This document shows, in pieces, positions 15,001 through 21,000 of a DNA stretch of 64,000 nt. The position numbers were made by a program. Numbering within the stretch: position 1 is the stretch's first letter; each line of letters begins with the position of its first letter. Origin of the DNA: Escherichia coli (lineage in GTDB: Bacteria > Pseudomonadota > Gammaproteobacteria > Enterobacterales > Enterobacteriaceae); the NCBI RefSeq assembly GCF_030013595.1, contig NZ_CP122768.1; one strand, 5' to 3'.

Positions 15001-18000
15001 GACATGAAAAAGCTGGGGTATGAGATGAAACACTTCCGGCGCTGGCTGTACAAGCTGGAAAGCGACGGCGTAATCGCTATTGACGGTGATTATGTGCGCC
15101 CACTGTAAAAAGTGAGGAGCAAAAGTGAGGATGGCGGGTAATTTAACAAAAAATCAACGCCACTCCTCACTTTCTCACCTGTATATAGGTCAAAAAGTGA
15201 GGAGTTAAAAACACATTGCAAAACAACAGATTACAACAATAAAGAAAACGACTGAGGAGCAGAACAAGAATAATAAAAAGTGAGGAACAAAAGTGAGGAA
15301 TGGTGAGTTAATAGAAATGAGGTAATAAAAATAACAGGTAGGTTAAAAAACACACCATGCAAGATATTAACTAAAACTTAACTATTTACCTCACTTTTGC
15401 GTATATATAAGGATTAAAAAGTGAGTACTTAAAAATACATTTAAAATCATATTGTTATTAACTTCATAAATTTTCACTGTGCAGCAGGTGAGGAATTAAA
15501 AAATCAGGAATGTTAAAAATGAAAACAGAATGTTGTGTCAGTGCCGTTGGGCAACGTAGCAACCAGTAAAAACGATGGGGCAAAGCATGACTAAGCTGAC
15601 CATTAACAGAAAACCGAAAGGCATTTACGGCACGCCGCAGAAAACGACGCAGGCGGCGCAGGAGCAGGATAAAACCACATCGGCGCATAAAGTGATGCCC
15701 GGTAACCAGAAAGCGCAGCAGAAGCCCACAGGGGCGACACCGTGGCGGCATATGACCAAACGCCAGCGCAAAAACCGCAGGCGCGTTAACCGCCTCACTG
15801 AGTTGTGGCCTGAATTATTCAGCCGGGAAGCACCGAAGCCGCTTAAGGTGGGGATATTCGACGACCTGATGCAGGATCTCGCCGTCAGGGGGCTGGCATT
15901 CGGTCCAGGGGCATTGCGTGCGACGCTGGCATCTTATGCGCAGTGTCCGCGCTATTACCGCGCCTTAATGGCTGGTGGGGTACGCTACGACCTGAAAGGC
16001 CAGCCGTGCGGCGAGGTGACACCACAGGAACAACAGGACGCCGAAACGCGGCTGGTGGCGCTGAATGAGAAGCGCAAACGTCAGCGCCGGGCAGCAAAGG
16101 AGAAAACAGGCGCATGATTCACGACAGCAAAGCGGAAGCACTGGAAGCGCGTGGTCTGTACCGGAGAGCGGCGGCGCGGTGGGCTGAGGTCATCATGCTG
16201 GCGAATGATGACAAGGCACGGGAACAGGCGGCAAAACGTCGCGCGGAATGTATCCGCAAGGCAGCACGCCCACCAGCAAGGCAGGATAATTTCGGGGAAA
16301 TGCGCGAAACCATCAGCCGGGCACATGCCGGGATGGGATTACATCAGCCCAATGGTAAGGCATTCAGGAAATACCCTGGATCGAAAAATTGCAGTCAGTG
16401 ACAGAAGCCGGGATTTTTCCCGGCTTTTTTGTGCCAGTAAAAAGCCCGCAGCCAGAAGTGTTGCGGGCTTTGTTTTTCAGGTGATTGAAGTCAATGGGAA
16501 GAACGCGATCATCATGCGTTATCGCTTCATAAATTGCAACGATGTAGATCGTTATTTCAGTTTGTGCAATCATAATCATTGTTTTGTTCAGGAGATATGA
16601 CTATGAGAAAAGCCAGCGTGAAACCCGTTTTACTCGCTCGTGATCAGATTGAAGCATTACAGCGCATCCAGGACGAGGAACGCCGCAATTCTCCGCTGGG
16701 GATTGCTCCGAGCATTCATGAGGTCGCCCGGCGTTTAATGCAGCGGGCGCTTTATCCCGTAGAACGTCCGGCCTGATGGTCGTGATTTTTTGGTGAAAAA
16801 AGAGAGGTGGTAAAAATGCCAGCAAGCAAAGAAGATTTGCGATTAAAACTGATGGAGGTGGTTAACGCTCTGTCAGAGTCGCAGGGCAGCACTCCGCAGG
16901 AGATTATCGAAATTCTGAATGCGATCCCCGCACAGGATTTCACAAAAGCGGACGAGGATGACGCGAATAAAAACATCGTCGCGTCAGTCGAAGATGAATC
17001 CTCACTGGCAGAAGCCCAGGCTAAAGCGGATTCCGCATACAGCAATATGGGCCGTCGCGCTCCAGCCCCGTTTGCTGGTGAAAAGTCGATGGATTACCGC
17101 AAGCGTGCATTAATTGGTGCACAGAAGCTGGCTAAAAAATTCAGTGATGTGGATATTCGTTCCGTTTCAGATTCTGCAACGCTGGCGGTGCTGGAAGATC
17201 AGATTTACCAGGCTGCAAAAGACAGTGTTCAGTGGGCTGTGGAAAATACGCCGGGCTATTTGCGTAAAACCGTAAGAATGGATGAAGCCGGACGGCGGAT
17301 TACTGAATATCAGGGGGATCCGAATAACTGGCTTAGTGCTTTCAAAATCCCTCCCCGTCGCCTGGTTAAAATTAACGTTGCAAGCCTCGCGGGGGCATGA
17401 AAAACGTGCTGATTTCAGCCCTGCCGGATTTGGTGGGGCTTATTGCTTATAACCGGGGGACATTATGCTTTTAACAGAAATTGAGGCGGCAAAGCAGATT
17501 CGGGACGGTCAGCTACCGTCGCCTTATCAGTTTTCCAACATGTGGCTGATTAACCTGCGTATCACAGGAACCGGAATGGCCTATCGCGCCGAAGAAAAAG
17601 AATTTGTCTGGCGTTCACCGCAAACTTATCTCAATCCGCAGTTCCTGGAACGTTGCGCCGGAGTACCCGTCATTATCGACCATCCCGAAAGCAAAACCCT
17701 TGAAGACGTGGGCGAACGGTCGCGCATTATTGGCACCGTTATGTTGCCGTATATTCGCGGTGACGAGGTGTGGGGCGTATGCCGGATTTACGGGCAGGAA
17801 ATCATCGATTACATCCAGAAAGCACGGGGGGAGGTATCCACCAGCCCGTCGGTTGTGTTTTGTGGTGCGTCCGGTGGGGCAGAAGTTCCTGATGTAATGG
17901 GCGAGGACAATTTTTTCATTGAGGGTACGCCATTTCTTATCGATCACGTTGCGCTCGTACCGTTGGGCGTATGGGATAAGGGCGGGAAACCATCAGGTGT

Positions 18001-21000
18001 GGAAGTAACAACGCCGACAGAAGAAGAACAGCTCGCCGGAATGGTCCGTGAAGTTATTGATGCGGCCTGCAAGCCAGCCCTGGAAAAACTGGAAGAAATA
18101 TCCGGGCGCTGGCTATGAATCGTGGGATTGTCCCTGCAGCAGGAAACAATGATCAGAACGTTAAGTTGGAAATTGTTCGGAACGCTGGTGCCGATTACTT
18201 CGCGCAACTAATTGGTGCTCAACGGTTCCTGGGATGATTTAAATACACGCGCTTTCCGGCGCATTAATACAGTCTGAGGGGAAGTGTCATGTTTATGAGC
18301 AAGGCAGAATATGCCAAACACAAAGGCGTAAGCCGCCAGACAGTTTACGACTGGATCGAGAAAGGCGAAGTGGTCATGTCCGGTAAAAAAATCGATGTGG
18401 AAGCGACAGAGCAGCGGAACAGCCCACCAGCACAGGGAAAAGATACCGTTTCTGAAATGTGGCCAGAGAGAACGCTGGAAATGACGTGGGGCGAGTTCTG
18501 GAAAGCAGTTAAGGCCAGAGACGGTAAAATCCCTGCACCAGTAACGGACGATGACATACAGCAGCGTGTGCAGGATGCAGCCGGGGAACTATGCTGTGAA
18601 GTGCAATTTCTTGATGATGGTGCTATCTGCCTTGAGGATTATGCTGGGCAATATTACTTTGAGCAGTATGATTTTCGGGAAAATGCCAGGCTGGCAATTC
18701 GTATGCTGCGTTGTGAGCTCTGCTATGTTGCAGGTGATTGTCCCGATGAGCTGGATAACTGGAGTGAAGCCGGACTAAACGCCCTGGCTGAGTGGGAAAA
18801 ATCATCCCATTAATGACCGTAAAATTCGCGAAAAGTGTCAAGTCAGGCCGTCTGCCGGGTTGACACTTTACACTCTGAACGCGAAAAAGTGTCAACCTCG
18901 CTGTAAGCCCCGCCATTACTGGCCTTTCGCCAGATTTACCACGTCAAAAAGCCGAAAAAATCGCGAAAAGTGTCAAGTTGCCATGCTTAGAAATGCTAAG
19001 GTTTGATAAGGTTTTTCGCGAAAAAGTGTCAAGTGTGTCAACCTGCGATGTTAAGATTTGTTAAGGTCTTAAGCCGGAAAGTGTCAACCAGCCCCTAAGA
19101 TTTCCTAAGGTGTAAATCATGACCATCACCGAAGCCGATATGCTGGAGATGATCCGCAGCATTGCCGGAATCAGACCACCAGCAGGCAAACAGGAGGCCA
19201 CGCAGCCGGACAGCGTTATCGCTGAGAACTATGCGCGTGTGGTGGCTGAGGTGATGCGCCGTGACGGTATTGAGCTTAACGGAGTGGATATGCGCGACAT
19301 ACGCACCAGGGTACTCGAGTTATTGGCCTACCGTCGCCGCGTGCAGATGTACCGGGAGAGCGAGAAAAAGACTTACCAGTGGAAGAAGCCGGAGCGGTTA
19401 CGGCGGTAACCAGTTGATAAAAAGGCTCCTCAATTTTGAGGAGGGTAGCTGGTGGCTGGCAGAATGTAAATTTACATTCTGGTGATTTAATCATCTGATT
19501 TACCCGATGGCTTACCTTACCAGGCCATAGCGGATTACCGTGCAATGCGCACCATCGCCACCAATACGCACATCAAAACGTGGCTCACGGACTTTCACAC
19601 GCTCCAGCAACTTATCACGAACCATAGCGTTTAGCGTCCTTCGTGTTGCCTCTATGTGATATCGCTGATATTCGGAACCATAGAGCAGCACTGTAACACC
19701 ACGAACATCAAAAGGTGGATCTCCAGCCTCCACCCGCACCCAATCGCGATACTCAGGTTTGTAGAGTTCAAGGATCTGTTTTTTGTGCCTGGTCATTCTC
19801 ATGCGTGCAACTCCTTATTGTGGGACAGTACTGTCATACAATAAGCTATACGGAAAATTATCAAAAGAACAGAAACCAACCATTCAGATTTAACAGGTAT
19901 CAATGGGATTATGCTTATGGTGCATGATGACAAAGCGGAAGAACTGGAAGCGAAAGGCTTATGGCGACGGGCGGCTAATCGCTGGGGTGAGTTACTGAAA
20001 CAGGCGGCAAGTGATGAAGCGCGTCAGTATGTAACGGAACGACGAACGGCATGCATCCGGAAGGCAACCATAACCCGGGAACCGGAAAGAGACCTGATTT
20101 GTGCCATAAGAACCGCCGCCACAAAAACACTAACGGATATGGGGATCGACCTGAAAAAAGAAGATCCACTGCGGGGCATTCAGCACGGACATACAAAGCA
20201 GGATAAACGCAGGAAGTAAATTTTTTCGTGTAACCAGGCAACCGACTATCTGAAAGATAGTCACACCCTACCGGGATCACGCTAGTAACGCACAACAGAG
20301 TGACCCATAGCCACCCTGTTTAACCGTTCCGGCTGGCTGGGCAGATTTTGCGCGGGTCTTATAGTCCCTCACAACAGAGTAAATAAAATTGACTTGGTTA
20401 CAGAGTAACCAAACCGGAGATTCCCGGTTTGCTCAAAAAATGACAATGAGTTACGCCCCTAACCTAAGTAATCCTTACATTCACTGCATCATCACCATGA
20501 TGGTGACGCAGCCCACCAGCAACCATAACGATTTCCGTTACAGTTGATGTGCTTTTTTGCTGGTAAGGCGTAACCCGTTGATTGTTCCAGAATCCACCAT
20601 CGGTGGAAGTTGAAAAACTCACCCGCCAGATTCTGAATGGTGAAAATCACCGGGGATCTGAATAGGCATTTCCTCTATGGAGGTCGCACCGTTTTCGGGA
20701 GAAGGTGCGATCATGTTCGTCATACCTGTTCCGTTGAAACGGAATACCCCATTCCGGCGTAGCTGGTGGACGCACAGCCACATACGAAAAATTGCATTCA
20801 GGAGGGGGGATCGAAATCCCTACCCCCCATTGCTTATGGGACCGCCCGCCCCGTCAAATTTTTACACCCGCGAAATTAAAAAAATGCGTCGCGCTGGTGG
20901 GCCTGATGCCGATATGGGGATTCCCATAACGGGTTATCCATGATCATCCACCAGCTTGATAACGGATAACAGGGGATGCGAAATCCTCAAGCGAGTGATA

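What the first reader, a model, noticed from the sequence alone, without database searches (positions are those of the whole stretch)
16114..20219. Two PerC-family paralogs on an island beside a T3SS locus
The ORFs at 16114-16401 and 19911-20219 share the PerC/Pch N-terminal signature (KAE.LEA.GL.RRAA.RW ... CIRKA). PerC/Pch proteins encoded on mobile elements are known activators of T3SS (LEE) expression through ler. Their presence in duplicate on an island inserted about 4 kb from ETT2 raises the possibility of cross-talk with ETT2 or another T3SS in the host genome.
Basis: partly seen in the sequence, partly recalled or inferred. Interest (0 to 1): 0.6.

Follow-up and report, generated by a model that had tools for sequence, protein, structure and literature searches.

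The report
Two PerC regulators on phage satellite
The two small PerC-type regulator genes are real, but they are typical cargo of a 14-kb phage satellite (PICI) that inserted at the glyU tRNA gene; its position beside the ETT2 secretion locus looks like a coincidence of insertion site, so this is a fairly ordinary find.

Summary
Observation confirmed. Both ORFs (16114-16401; 19911/19917-20219) match Pfam PerC (E 2e-32 and 6e-23) and evolve under purifying selection. Both are 100% identical to proteins already annotated as PerC family in other E. coli genomes.

They lie on a 14.06-kb element bounded by a 19-bp direct repeat at the 3' end of tRNA-Gly(CCC). Its parts are those of a Gram-negative PICI phage satellite: integrase, int-alpA RNA, AlpA, antirepressor, RgdR-like DUF4222 protein, primase, iteron origin and a small packaging-like module. 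PerC genes are documented PICI cargo.

The paralogs are two old subfamilies, not a recent duplicate. PerC#1 is coupled to a ProQ/FinO-like gene at the end of the replication operon, where PchE sits in O157 Sp7. PerC#2 is a separate distal cassette with a winged-helix-like partner.

The same layout occurs at unrelated chromosomal sites, and at glyU in a strain lacking ETT2, so adjacency to ETT2 carries no information. Neither paralog falls in the LEE-activating PchABC/PerC clade. The closest tested relatives do not activate LEE (PchE) or repress it (EcCIMP1_025).

Cross-talk with a T3SS is untested and not excluded. The likeliest mode of action, inferred from PchA, is trans-acting modulation of H-NS-silenced DNA.

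The parts
6970..7043 (+). tRNA-Gly(CCC), glyU; its 3' end (7026-7044) is attL of the island
   Evidence: ARAGORN; Rfam tRNA, 71.6 bits; 19-bp direct repeat
7169..8422 (+). Tyrosine integrase
   Evidence: phrog_1 integrase, E 7.8e-80; annotated as a tyrosine recombinase in relatives
8467..8534 (+). int-alpA RNA motif
   Evidence: Rfam RF02996, 45.5 bits against a gathering score of 35.8
8545..9348 (+). 267-aa ORF of unknown function in the int-alpA interval
   Evidence: No PHROG, NCBIfam or PADLOC hit; conserved in strain cq9
9576..9773 (+). AlpA-family regulator
   Evidence: Pfam Phage_AlpA PF05930, E 2.8e-19
9851..10651 (+). AntA/AntB-type antirepressor
   Evidence: phrog_5817, E 8.7e-42; annotation in relatives
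11279..11599 (-). YlcI/YnfO family protein
   Evidence: NCBIfam NF041551, 70.9 bits against a cut-off of 30
11709..11984 (+). Icd-like ORF; this is the C-terminal part of the long mechanical ORF 10644-11984
   Evidence: phrog_6196, E 1e-50, on residues 356-445; 'Icd-like' at the same position in relatives
12349..12639 (+). RgdR-family (DUF4222) protein abutting the primase
   Evidence: 49% identical to RgdR/ECs1581, E 2e-25; DUF4222 annotated at this position in relatives
12636..14384 (+). Primase/replicase (pri-rep)
   Evidence: phrog_864 DNA primase, E 1.3e-143
15107..15500 (.). Iteron origin: at least 8 GTGAGGA repeats in both orientations around an AT-rich core
   Evidence: Repeat families D1 and D5; sequence read directly; matches the PICI ori layout described in PMC6092414
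15575..16117 (+). ProQ/FinO-like RNA-binding protein
   Evidence: NCBIfam FinO 9.6e-18 and ProQ 1.4e-15, both below the curated cut-offs; annotated 'ProQ/FINO family' in relatives
16114..16401 (+). PerC#1 (95 aa), the 'proximal' PerC; its start overlaps the ProQ-like stop codon (ATGA) and AGGAG lies 11 nt upstream
   Evidence: Pfam PerC 2.4e-32; identical to WP_000581049.1; junction read directly; dN/dS 0.22-0.38
16405..16478 (+). Two tandem intrinsic terminators that close the replication/ProQ/PerC#1 unit
   Evidence: Terminator scan; sequence read directly
16579..18813 (+). Packaging-like or interference-like late module: 65-aa ORF, 197-aa ORF, DUF2213 protein (17465-18118) and a 174-aa protein with a TerS/excisionase-like N-terminal HTH (18289-18813)
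   Evidence: phrog_6216; weak phrog_530 head maturation protease; phrog_57 terminase small subunit N-terminus; conserved order in relatives
19119..19409 (+). 96-aa ORF (phrog_1561) at the start of the distal cassette; also present at the right end of Sp7
   Evidence: phrog_1561, E 3.1e-47; homolog in Sp7, E 1.1e-38
19512..19802 (-). Winged-helix-like small protein transcribed divergently from PerC#2; a conserved partner of distal PerC genes
   Evidence: No Pfam or PHROG family; AF2 pLDDT 85.3, pTM 0.75, H-H-H-H-beta-beta; the Foldseek list is dominated by winged-helix DNA binders but none reaches E <= 0.001; found next to PerC in L002, L003, L008, L010, L011, L016-L018
19834..19846 (+). Invariant TCATACAATAAGC box (-10-like TACAAT) in the divergent intergenic region; candidate PerC#2 promoter
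   Evidence: 5-way alignment of diverged cassettes
19911..20219 (+). PerC#2 (102 aa from 19911; 100 aa from 19917 as annotated elsewhere), the 'distal' PerC
   Evidence: Pfam PerC 5.7e-23; identical to WP_021558663.1; dN/dS 0.14; distinct clade in 200 of 200 bootstraps
20220..21082 (.). Gene-free, mosaic and decayed tail of the island
   Evidence: Only fragmentary matches, including a 14-residue KilA-N remnant; no Rfam hit
21083..21101 (+). attR, the second copy of the 19-bp repeat
   Evidence: empty-site genomes

Best explanation
SHOWN. The region 7026-21101 is a PICI-type phage satellite integrated at glyU. It carries two PerC-family genes that belong to different, anciently diverged subfamilies and occupy two conserved module positions.

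PerC#1 is the last gene of the replication-side transcription unit (RgdR-like, primase, iteron ori, ProQ/FinO-like, PerC#1). Its start codon overlaps the stop codon of the ProQ/FinO-like gene, and two terminators follow it. This is the position PchE occupies in the O157 satellite Sp7/OI-51.

PerC#2 is a stand-alone distal cassette. It has its own conserved -10-like box and a divergently transcribed winged-helix-like partner.

INFERRED. Both proteins are small, all-helical, trans-acting regulators without a canonical DNA-binding domain. By analogy with PchA they most likely work by associating with AT-rich, H-NS/StpA/Hha-bound DNA and remodelling that silencing complex. The output (activation or repression) and the targets would be allele-specific. 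PerC#1 would be made when the satellite is induced, together with its replication genes. PerC#2 could be expressed from the integrated element under control of its partner, acting as a lysogenic-conversion-type regulator.

The position next to ETT2 reflects the shared glyU integration hot spot, not a functional link.
For: Satellite identity:
- att repeats and tRNA; empty site in 99.9%-identical genomes.
- Integrase, primase and antirepressor; AlpA; int-alpA RNA; iterons.
- No capsid, tail or lysis hits.
- Same architecture as the published PICIs EcCIMP1 and Sp7/EcCIEDL933.

PerC identity and maintenance:
- Pfam hits; dN/dS 0.14-0.38.

Two subfamilies and two positions:
-; recurring layout in L002, L003, L016, L017 and L018.

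Operon structure:
- ATGA overlap, RBS and tandem terminators.

Distal cassette:
- Conserved box; winged-helix-like partner.

Fold:
- Confident three-helix N-terminal unit plus a fourth helix, with no DNA-binding fold detected.

Mechanistic analogy:
- PchA lacks homology to DNA-binding proteins.
- 88% of its binding regions lie in H-NS regions.
- Its activation needs H-NS/StpA/Hha/YdgT.

Adjacency is coincidental:
- Other integration sites, and glyU without ETT2.

Family is broader than LEE:
- PerC homologs occur in Klebsiella, Kluyvera, Leclercia, Serratia, Enterobacter, Shimwellia and others.
Against: - Nothing here shows expression, DNA association or any target.
- The anti-silencing mechanism is demonstrated only for PchA, which is 33-43% identical to these proteins.
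- Fukui et al. did not detect a direct PchA-H-NS interaction.
- PerC-family outputs differ between alleles: activation, no effect, or repression.
- Expression timing is inferred only from gene order, terminators and one conserved promoter-like box. The consensus promoter scan found no strong sigma-70 promoter for either gene.
- The partner's winged-helix assignment rests on topology and a consistent but statistically weak hit list.
- Helper-phage induction of this island is untested.
Confidence: 0.6

Rival explanations
1. One reading: one or both paralogs are T3SS regulators that cross-talk with the adjacent ETT2, or with LEE if the strain has it, in the way PchABC/PerC activate ler.
For: - The family includes bona fide LEE1 activators.
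- A PICI-borne homolog does alter LEE1 expression, as a repressor.
- The island also encodes an RgdR homolog (49% identical), and RgdR activates LEE1.
- ETT2 is AT-rich (30-38% G+C), the kind of DNA PchA associates with.
- The ETT2 regulators eivF, the LuxR-type gene and ygeH are intact ORFs in the window.
Against: - Neither paralog is in the activator clade.
- The nearest tested relatives do not activate LEE.
- The same two-PerC layout is found at unrelated sites, and at glyU in a strain without ETT2.
- The family is widespread in genera without LEE.
- ETT2 structural genes are probably degraded here.
- The RgdR homolog has HGD in place of the RGD motif. In RgdR that arginine matters: the natural R20C variant is inactive.
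- No literature on PerC and ETT2 was found.
Confidence: 0.15
2. ANR-like anti-activators: the N-terminal three-helix module works like Aar. It would bind AraC/XylS-type activators and/or H-NS directly, so the proteins are chiefly repressors. This is what Pick et al. proposed for EcCIMP1_025.
For: - Sub-threshold matches to the ANR model NF033650 for PerC#2, PchE and EPEC PerC (18-19 bits, E about 1e-3), and for short PerC-like proteins (up to 27 bits).
- Aar is a 63-aa, three-helix protein without DNA binding that binds AggR and H-NS.
- The PerC#1 model has a confident three-helix N-terminal unit.
- EcCIMP1_025 represses LEE1.
Against: - All scores are below the curated cut-off of 32 bits, and PerC#1 itself gives no hit.
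- EPEC PerC, an activator, gives the same weak ANR score, so the resemblance does not predict the sign of the effect.
- No profile-profile test against real ANR sequences could be run.
- PchA did not co-precipitate H-NS.
Confidence: 0.2
3. Decaying passenger genes with no current function.
For: - In related islands the distal copy carries an internal stop (EC12) and a proximal copy is truncated (OkiPb01713).
- The island's right end is visibly decayed.
Against: - Both window copies are intact.
- dN/dS is 0.14-0.38 across diverged orthologs.
- Position, translational coupling and the upstream box are conserved.
Confidence: 0.05

Closest known systems
PchE on prophage-like element Sp7 / OI-51 / CP-933C (EcCIEDL933) of E. 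coli O157:H7
   Same: Closest characterised relative of both paralogs (51% and 46% identity). It is encoded on a satellite at the same module position as PerC#1, after the RgdR-primase-SSB replication genes and before the packaging genes.
   Different: Sp7 is a capsid-forming type, with major head, portal and terminase genes. PchE follows an SSB gene rather than a ProQ/FinO-like gene. Sp7 has one PerC gene. PchE's known effects are on curli, csgD and flagella, not LEE activation.
EcCIMP1 (PICI of E. coli MP1) and its PerC-like EcCIMP1_025
   Same: Experimentally verified PICI with integrase, AlpA, antirepressor, Icd-like and DUF4222 proteins and a primase. Its PerC gene is at the integrase-distal end next to a homolog of the winged-helix-like partner. 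In placement it resembles PerC#2.
   Different: EcCIMP1_025 is only 45% and 34% identical to PerC#1 and PerC#2 and belongs to another subfamily, shared with the Enterobacter and Shimwellia copies. EcCIMP1 integrates at tRNA-Thr near proA, has a single PerC gene and carries P22-like ejection-protein genes.
PchA/B/C (lambdoid prophages of EHEC) and PerC/BfpW (EAF plasmid of EPEC)
   Same: Same Pfam family with the same conserved N-terminal signature. R17, R18, A19, R22, W23, R43 and C46 are invariant in the 33-sequence alignment.
   Different: 33-43% identity and a separate clade. They are encoded as a prophage moron or in the perABC operon, not on a satellite. They are the only members shown to activate LEE1.
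ANR family (Aar and relatives)
   Same: Small three-helix proteins without a DNA-binding domain that modulate H-NS and activators; weak profile similarity.
   Different: Below the curated threshold. PerC proteins carry an additional conserved C-terminal half (helix 60-73 and the ...MG...FR.Y or ...KKEDPLRG motifs).

Membership tests
PerC family (Pfam PF06069) | Significant full-length match to the family profile | tested here: met
   PerC#1: E 2.4e-32, model positions 1-89 of 90. PerC#2: E 5.7e-23, model positions 1-82 of 90.
PerC family (Pfam PF06069) | Conserved N-terminal residues (RRA..RW ... R..C) | tested here: met
   The invariant columns R17, R18, A19, R22, W23, R43 and C46 are present in both paralogs.
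LEE-activating group 1 (PchABC / EPEC PerC) | Phylogenetic placement with PchA/PerC | tested here: not met
   NJ with 200 bootstraps: PerC#1 plus PchE separate from PchA plus PerC in 165 of 200; PerC#2 clade excludes all characterised members in 200 of 200. Identity to PchA is 43% and 33%.
LEE-activating group 1 (PchABC / EPEC PerC) | Activation of the LEE1 (ler) promoter | not testable with these tools
   Needs reporter assays. The nearest tested relatives show no activation (PchE) or repression (EcCIMP1_025).
LEE-activating group 1 (PchABC / EPEC PerC) | Carried as a moron on a lambdoid prophage or in the perABC operon of an EAF plasmid | tested here: not met
   Both genes are on a PICI-type satellite. 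Compare the PchA context and the perABC context.
Gram-negative PICI (phage-inducible chromosomal island) | Site-specific integration with flanking att repeats; size about 10-15 kb | tested here: met
   19-bp direct repeats 14,057 bp apart at tRNA-Gly; empty site in near-isogenic genomes.
Gram-negative PICI (phage-inducible chromosomal island) | Integrase followed by an AlpA-type regulator | tested here: met
   phrog_1 integrase; Pfam Phage_AlpA, 2.8e-19; int-alpA RNA.
Gram-negative PICI (phage-inducible chromosomal island) | Primase/replicase followed by an iteron origin | tested here: met
   phrog_864, E 1.3e-143; GTGAGGA iterons at 15107-15500 around an AT-rich core.
Gram-negative PICI (phage-inducible chromosomal island) | Absence of phage structural and lysis genes | tested here: met
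   PHROG scans of all island ORFs give no capsid, portal, tail, large terminase or lysis hits. The only related signals are a weak protease-like hit (E 5.7e-05) and a TerS-like N-terminal HTH.
Gram-negative PICI (phage-inducible chromosomal island) | Induction by, and packaging through, a helper phage | not testable with these tools
   Requires experiments. It has been shown for the related EcCIMP1.
Capsid-forming PICI (cf-PICI) | Own major capsid, portal, protease, adaptor and terminase genes | tested here: not met
   Absent here; present in Sp7.
P4-like satellite | Psu, Sid and Delta/Ogr genes | tested here: not met
   No island ORF of 40 aa or more matched a PHROG with such an annotation. 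This is a limited test, because it relies on PHROG annotations.
ANR family (NCBIfam NF033650) | Score above the curated cut-off (32 bits) | tested here: not met
   PerC#1: no hit. PerC#2: 19 bits.

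The most novel reading that the evidence does not exclude
PerC-family proteins may not be virulence cargo at all, but regulatory components of enterobacterial phage satellites.

The proximal type (PerC#1, PchE) would be co-expressed and translationally coupled with a ProQ/FinO-like RNA chaperone at the end of the replication operon. It would serve the satellite life cycle, for example by relieving H-NS silencing of satellite or helper-phage DNA on induction.

The distal type (PerC#2), with its winged-helix partner, would form a separate switch cassette that reprogrammes the host from the integrated state.

LEE activation by PchABC/PerC would then be a later exaptation of a satellite or phage counter-silencer.
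Probability: 0.25. Interest if true: 0.55.

Novelty: new member of a known kind. Interest (0 to 1): 0.25.

Why it matters
As it stands the finding matters little. It adds one more mosaic member to a known class of E. coli phage satellites whose PerC-like genes are already annotated and have been discussed in the literature since 2018.

Its modest value lies in three points:
- Multi-PerC satellites are recurrent.
- The two copies belong to distinct subfamilies with fixed positions: one coupled to a ProQ/FinO-like gene, one paired with a winged-helix-like gene.
- Neither belongs to the LEE-activating clade.

This argues against reading every 'PerC family transcriptional regulator' annotation as a T3SS activator. 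It also gives a concrete, testable frame for what the uncharacterised subfamilies do. If the satellite-intrinsic reading were correct, it would change how the origin of the EHEC/EPEC Pch/PerC virulence regulators is understood.

Tried and rejected
- Porter et al. 2005, the primary test of the PerC groups, is not in the held library. I relied on how it is cited.
- The genome-contig scan used a narrow peptide pattern and returned only 6 loci. It is enough to show satellite context in other genera, but not a census.
- Sequence search of the PDB with the family profile found nothing meaningful.
- Foldseek of the PerC#1 model against the PDB gave only insignificant TPR/MIT-like helical matches.
- Apart from the tRNA and the int-alpA RNA, the Rfam E-value scan of the island gave only chance-level hits.
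- PADLOC found no defence system.
- A perfect 12-bp palindrome upstream of PerC#2 (19825-19836) looked like an operator, but it is not conserved in diverged cassettes.
- The 860-bp gene-free tail after PerC#2 was checked for a hidden gene or an antiterminator-Q remnant. Only decayed fragments were found.
- The first Biopython bootstrap timed out and was redone with a numpy NJ.
- The sigma-70 consensus scan gave fewer hits than the shuffles and no convincing promoter for either gene.
- The dN/dS value against the EC12 pseudogene copy is unreliable because of the internal stop, and I ignored it.
- I could not determine whether the host strain carries LEE. The source genome is not in the complete-genome collection (best island coverage 69%), and the tools cannot query one chosen genome for LEE.
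- I could not obtain bona fide ANR sequences for a profile-profile test.

Full report
**1. Observation**

The two ORFs are present as described: 16114-16401 (95 aa) and 19911-20219 (102 aa). Identical genes elsewhere are annotated from 19917, giving 100 aa. They are 46% identical over 78 residues (BLASTP, E 2e-20) and 38% identical over the global alignment. Both match the Pfam PerC profile almost end to end, with E 2.4e-32 and 5.7e-23, and both match phrog_994. PerC#1 is 100% identical to WP_000581049.1 and PerC#2 to WP_021558663.1. Both are annotated 'PerC family transcriptional regulator' in other E. coli genomes.

**2. What the island is**

A 19-bp direct repeat (TTCCCTTCGCCCGCTCCAA) lies at 7026-7044, the 3' end of tRNA-Gly(CCC), and again at 21083-21101. 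Two pig E. coli genomes are 99.9% identical on both flanks and have the flanks contiguous, so the element is a discrete 14.06-kb insertion.

Gene content, in order:
- Tyrosine integrase, then an Rfam int-alpA RNA above the gathering score.
- An unassigned 267-aa ORF.
- AlpA (Pfam 2.8e-19) and an AntA/AntB antirepressor.
- A YlcI/YnfO gene on the opposite strand and an Icd-like ORF.
- A DUF4222 protein 49% identical to RgdR, directly abutting a primase (phrog_864, E 1.3e-143).
- An iteron origin with at least 8 GTGAGGA repeats around an AT-rich core.
- A ProQ/FinO-like gene, then PerC#1, then two tandem terminators.
- A short module with a DUF2213 (weakly protease-like) protein and a protein with a TerS-like N-terminus.
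- A distal cassette that ends with PerC#2.

There are no capsid, tail, large terminase or lysis genes. This is the constellation that defines Gram-negative PICIs, and it parallels the experimentally verified EcCIMP1. No complete E. coli genome holds more than 69% of this particular mosaic, so it is a new combination of known modules.

**3. PerC genes on such elements are known**

- Fillol-Salom et al. [quoted passage not shown]
- Pick et al. 2025 list AlpA and PerC regulators among characteristic PICI genes. They show that EcCIMP1_025 represses LEE1 in C. rodentium, and they cite earlier work that the PerC-like genes of EcCIEDL933 and EcCICFT073 had no effect on LEE1.
- PchE lies on Sp7/OI-51, itself a satellite, between the replication and packaging modules.
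- The EAEC 042 genome paper already listed an adjacent proQ-like/PerC-like pair on a small tRNA island.
- PerC-type DNA similarity is detectable in 1,175 of 5,426 complete E. coli genomes. PerC#1-type genes are found in 191 and PerC#2-type genes in 63.
- The family is almost absent from sequenced phages (2 of 50,697 records). It is present on plasmids (191 records).
- It occurs in many Enterobacterales genera that lack LEE. In 4 of 6 cross-species loci it sits in the same int-alpA-ant-primase context.

**4. Two subfamilies, two positions**

In an NJ analysis of 105 family members, the two paralogs are sisters in only 1 of 200 bootstraps. PerC#2 forms a clade with other 'distal' copies in 200 of 200, and that clade has no characterised member. 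PerC#1 groups with other 'post-ProQ' copies (153 of 200) and with PchE, away from PchA plus EPEC PerC (165 of 200). Both lineages are under purifying selection, with dN/dS of 0.14-0.38.

PerC#1's ATG overlaps the stop codon of the ProQ/FinO-like gene (ATGA) behind an AGGAG, and is followed by two intrinsic terminators. It therefore closes the replication-side unit.

PerC#2 is preceded by a divergently transcribed 95-aa gene. The intergenic region keeps an invariant TCATACAATAAGC box across cassettes that are otherwise about 70% identical. That partner has no family assignment, but it models confidently (pLDDT 85, pTM 0.75) as four helices plus a beta-hairpin. Its structural neighbours are almost all winged-helix DNA binders, though at weak E-values. 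It accompanies PerC in EcCIMP1 and in the Enterobacter and Shimwellia elements too.

**5. Is the ETT2 neighbourhood meaningful?**

The neighbour is ETT2, which is itself inserted at glyU. However, the same two-PerC layout occurs at other sites:
- Between abgR and smrA (RM9088).
- Near yejO/narP (PSS-15).
- At a tRNA-Ile next to mug (EC12, where the distal copy is a pseudogene).
- In dinD (OkiPb01713, which has three PerC genes).
- At glyU in SCU-171, where ETT2 is missing and the island abuts yqeG.

Adjacency therefore reflects a shared tRNA hot spot.

In the window, ETT2 differs from the annotated 99.93%-identical locus only by 12 substitutions, 2 single-base indels and the position of an IS2. 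Here the IS2 is at 23223-24553, upstream of eivF, and ygeH is intact. PGAP's calls of a split eivJ and a frameshifted YscQ-family gene in that locus are not affected by these differences. The apparatus is therefore probably defective.

**6. Mechanism**

The PerC#1 model has a confident three-helix N-terminal unit (residues 5-50, pLDDT above 90) and a looser fourth helix. It has no solved structural relative and no recognisable DNA-binding fold.

For PchA, the literature shows:
- No homology to DNA-binding proteins.
- Genome-wide association with low-G+C DNA, with 88% of its binding regions inside H-NS regions.
- Activation that depends entirely on H-NS/StpA/Hha/YdgT silencing.

PchE instead affects csgD/curli and flagella, and EcCIMP1_025 represses LEE1. 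The family also has sub-threshold similarity to ANR anti-activators, which are three-helix proteins that bind H-NS and AraC-type activators.

My best inference is that both window proteins are trans-acting modulators of H-NS-type nucleoprotein complexes, with allele-specific targets. PerC#1 would be expressed with the satellite's replication genes on induction. PerC#2 would be expressed from its own promoter under its winged-helix partner. These steps are inferred, not shown.

**7. Verdict**

That idea stays possible only in the general sense that any PerC-family protein might touch AT-rich silenced loci. The finding is a new mosaic member of a known kind of element. Interest is low to moderate.

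Noticed in passing
window 8467-8534 (+): Rfam int-alpA RNA motif (RF02996), 45.5 bits against a gathering score of 35.8. It lies between the integrase and the next ORF.
   Followed up: no
window 15107-15500: Iteron-type replication origin: at least 8 GTGAGGA repeats in both orientations flanking an AT-rich core, just downstream of the primase module.
   Followed up: partly
window 18817-19032: Four copies of CGCGAAAA(A)GTGTCAA, arranged as two pairs about 135 bp apart, between the TerS-like ORF and ORF 19119. Possibly an operator or packaging site.
   Followed up: no
window 9363-9486: Repeats just upstream of alpA: a 17-nt pair TACCCTGAGGGT... at 9363-9401 and a 33-nt tandem pair TTACCATCACCCTTAGGGT... 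at 9421-9486.
   Followed up: no
window 12349-12639 (+): RgdR-family (DUF4222) protein, 49% identical to the LEE1 activator RgdR/ECs1581, but with HGD where RgdR has its RGD motif.
   Followed up: partly
window 8545-9348 (+): 267-aa ORF between int and alpA with no PHROG, NCBIfam or PADLOC match. From my own knowledge, this interval is a known cargo and defence hot spot in PICIs.
   Followed up: partly
window 23223-24553: A 1,331-bp IS2 sits 318 bp upstream of eivF, while ygeH (43646-45022, minus strand) is intact. In the 99.9%-identical strain HCP5S3_I2 the identical IS2 interrupts ygeH instead.
   Followed up: partly
window 32253-34096: In the near-identical annotated genome PGAP flags eivJ as split and the YscQ/HrcQ-family gene as frameshifted. 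The window has no indel differences in these genes, so ETT2 is probably degraded here.
   Followed up: partly
window 20220-21082: About 860 bp without a credible ORF between PerC#2 and attR. It is a mosaic of fragments shared with other islands, including a 14-residue KilA-N remnant.
   Followed up: yes
L007 37943-40146 (Sakai SpLE1): pchD lies immediately downstream of ibrA and ybdM (ibrB-like). This is a third, different conserved context for a PerC-family gene.
   Followed up: no
L017 16047-16439; L018 16664-17056: Related multi-PerC satellites carry an antiterminator-Q family gene near their right end. SCU-171 also carries a dcm/type II restriction pair between its two PerC genes.
   Followed up: no
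L010 10001-10312, L011 7141-7491, L008 10418-10699: The EcCIMP1_025 subfamily, the LEE1 repressor type, is nearly identical in Enterobacter asburiae and Shimwellia pseudoproteus satellites (Kimura distance 0.07-0.08). This indicates recent intergeneric spread.
   Followed up: partly
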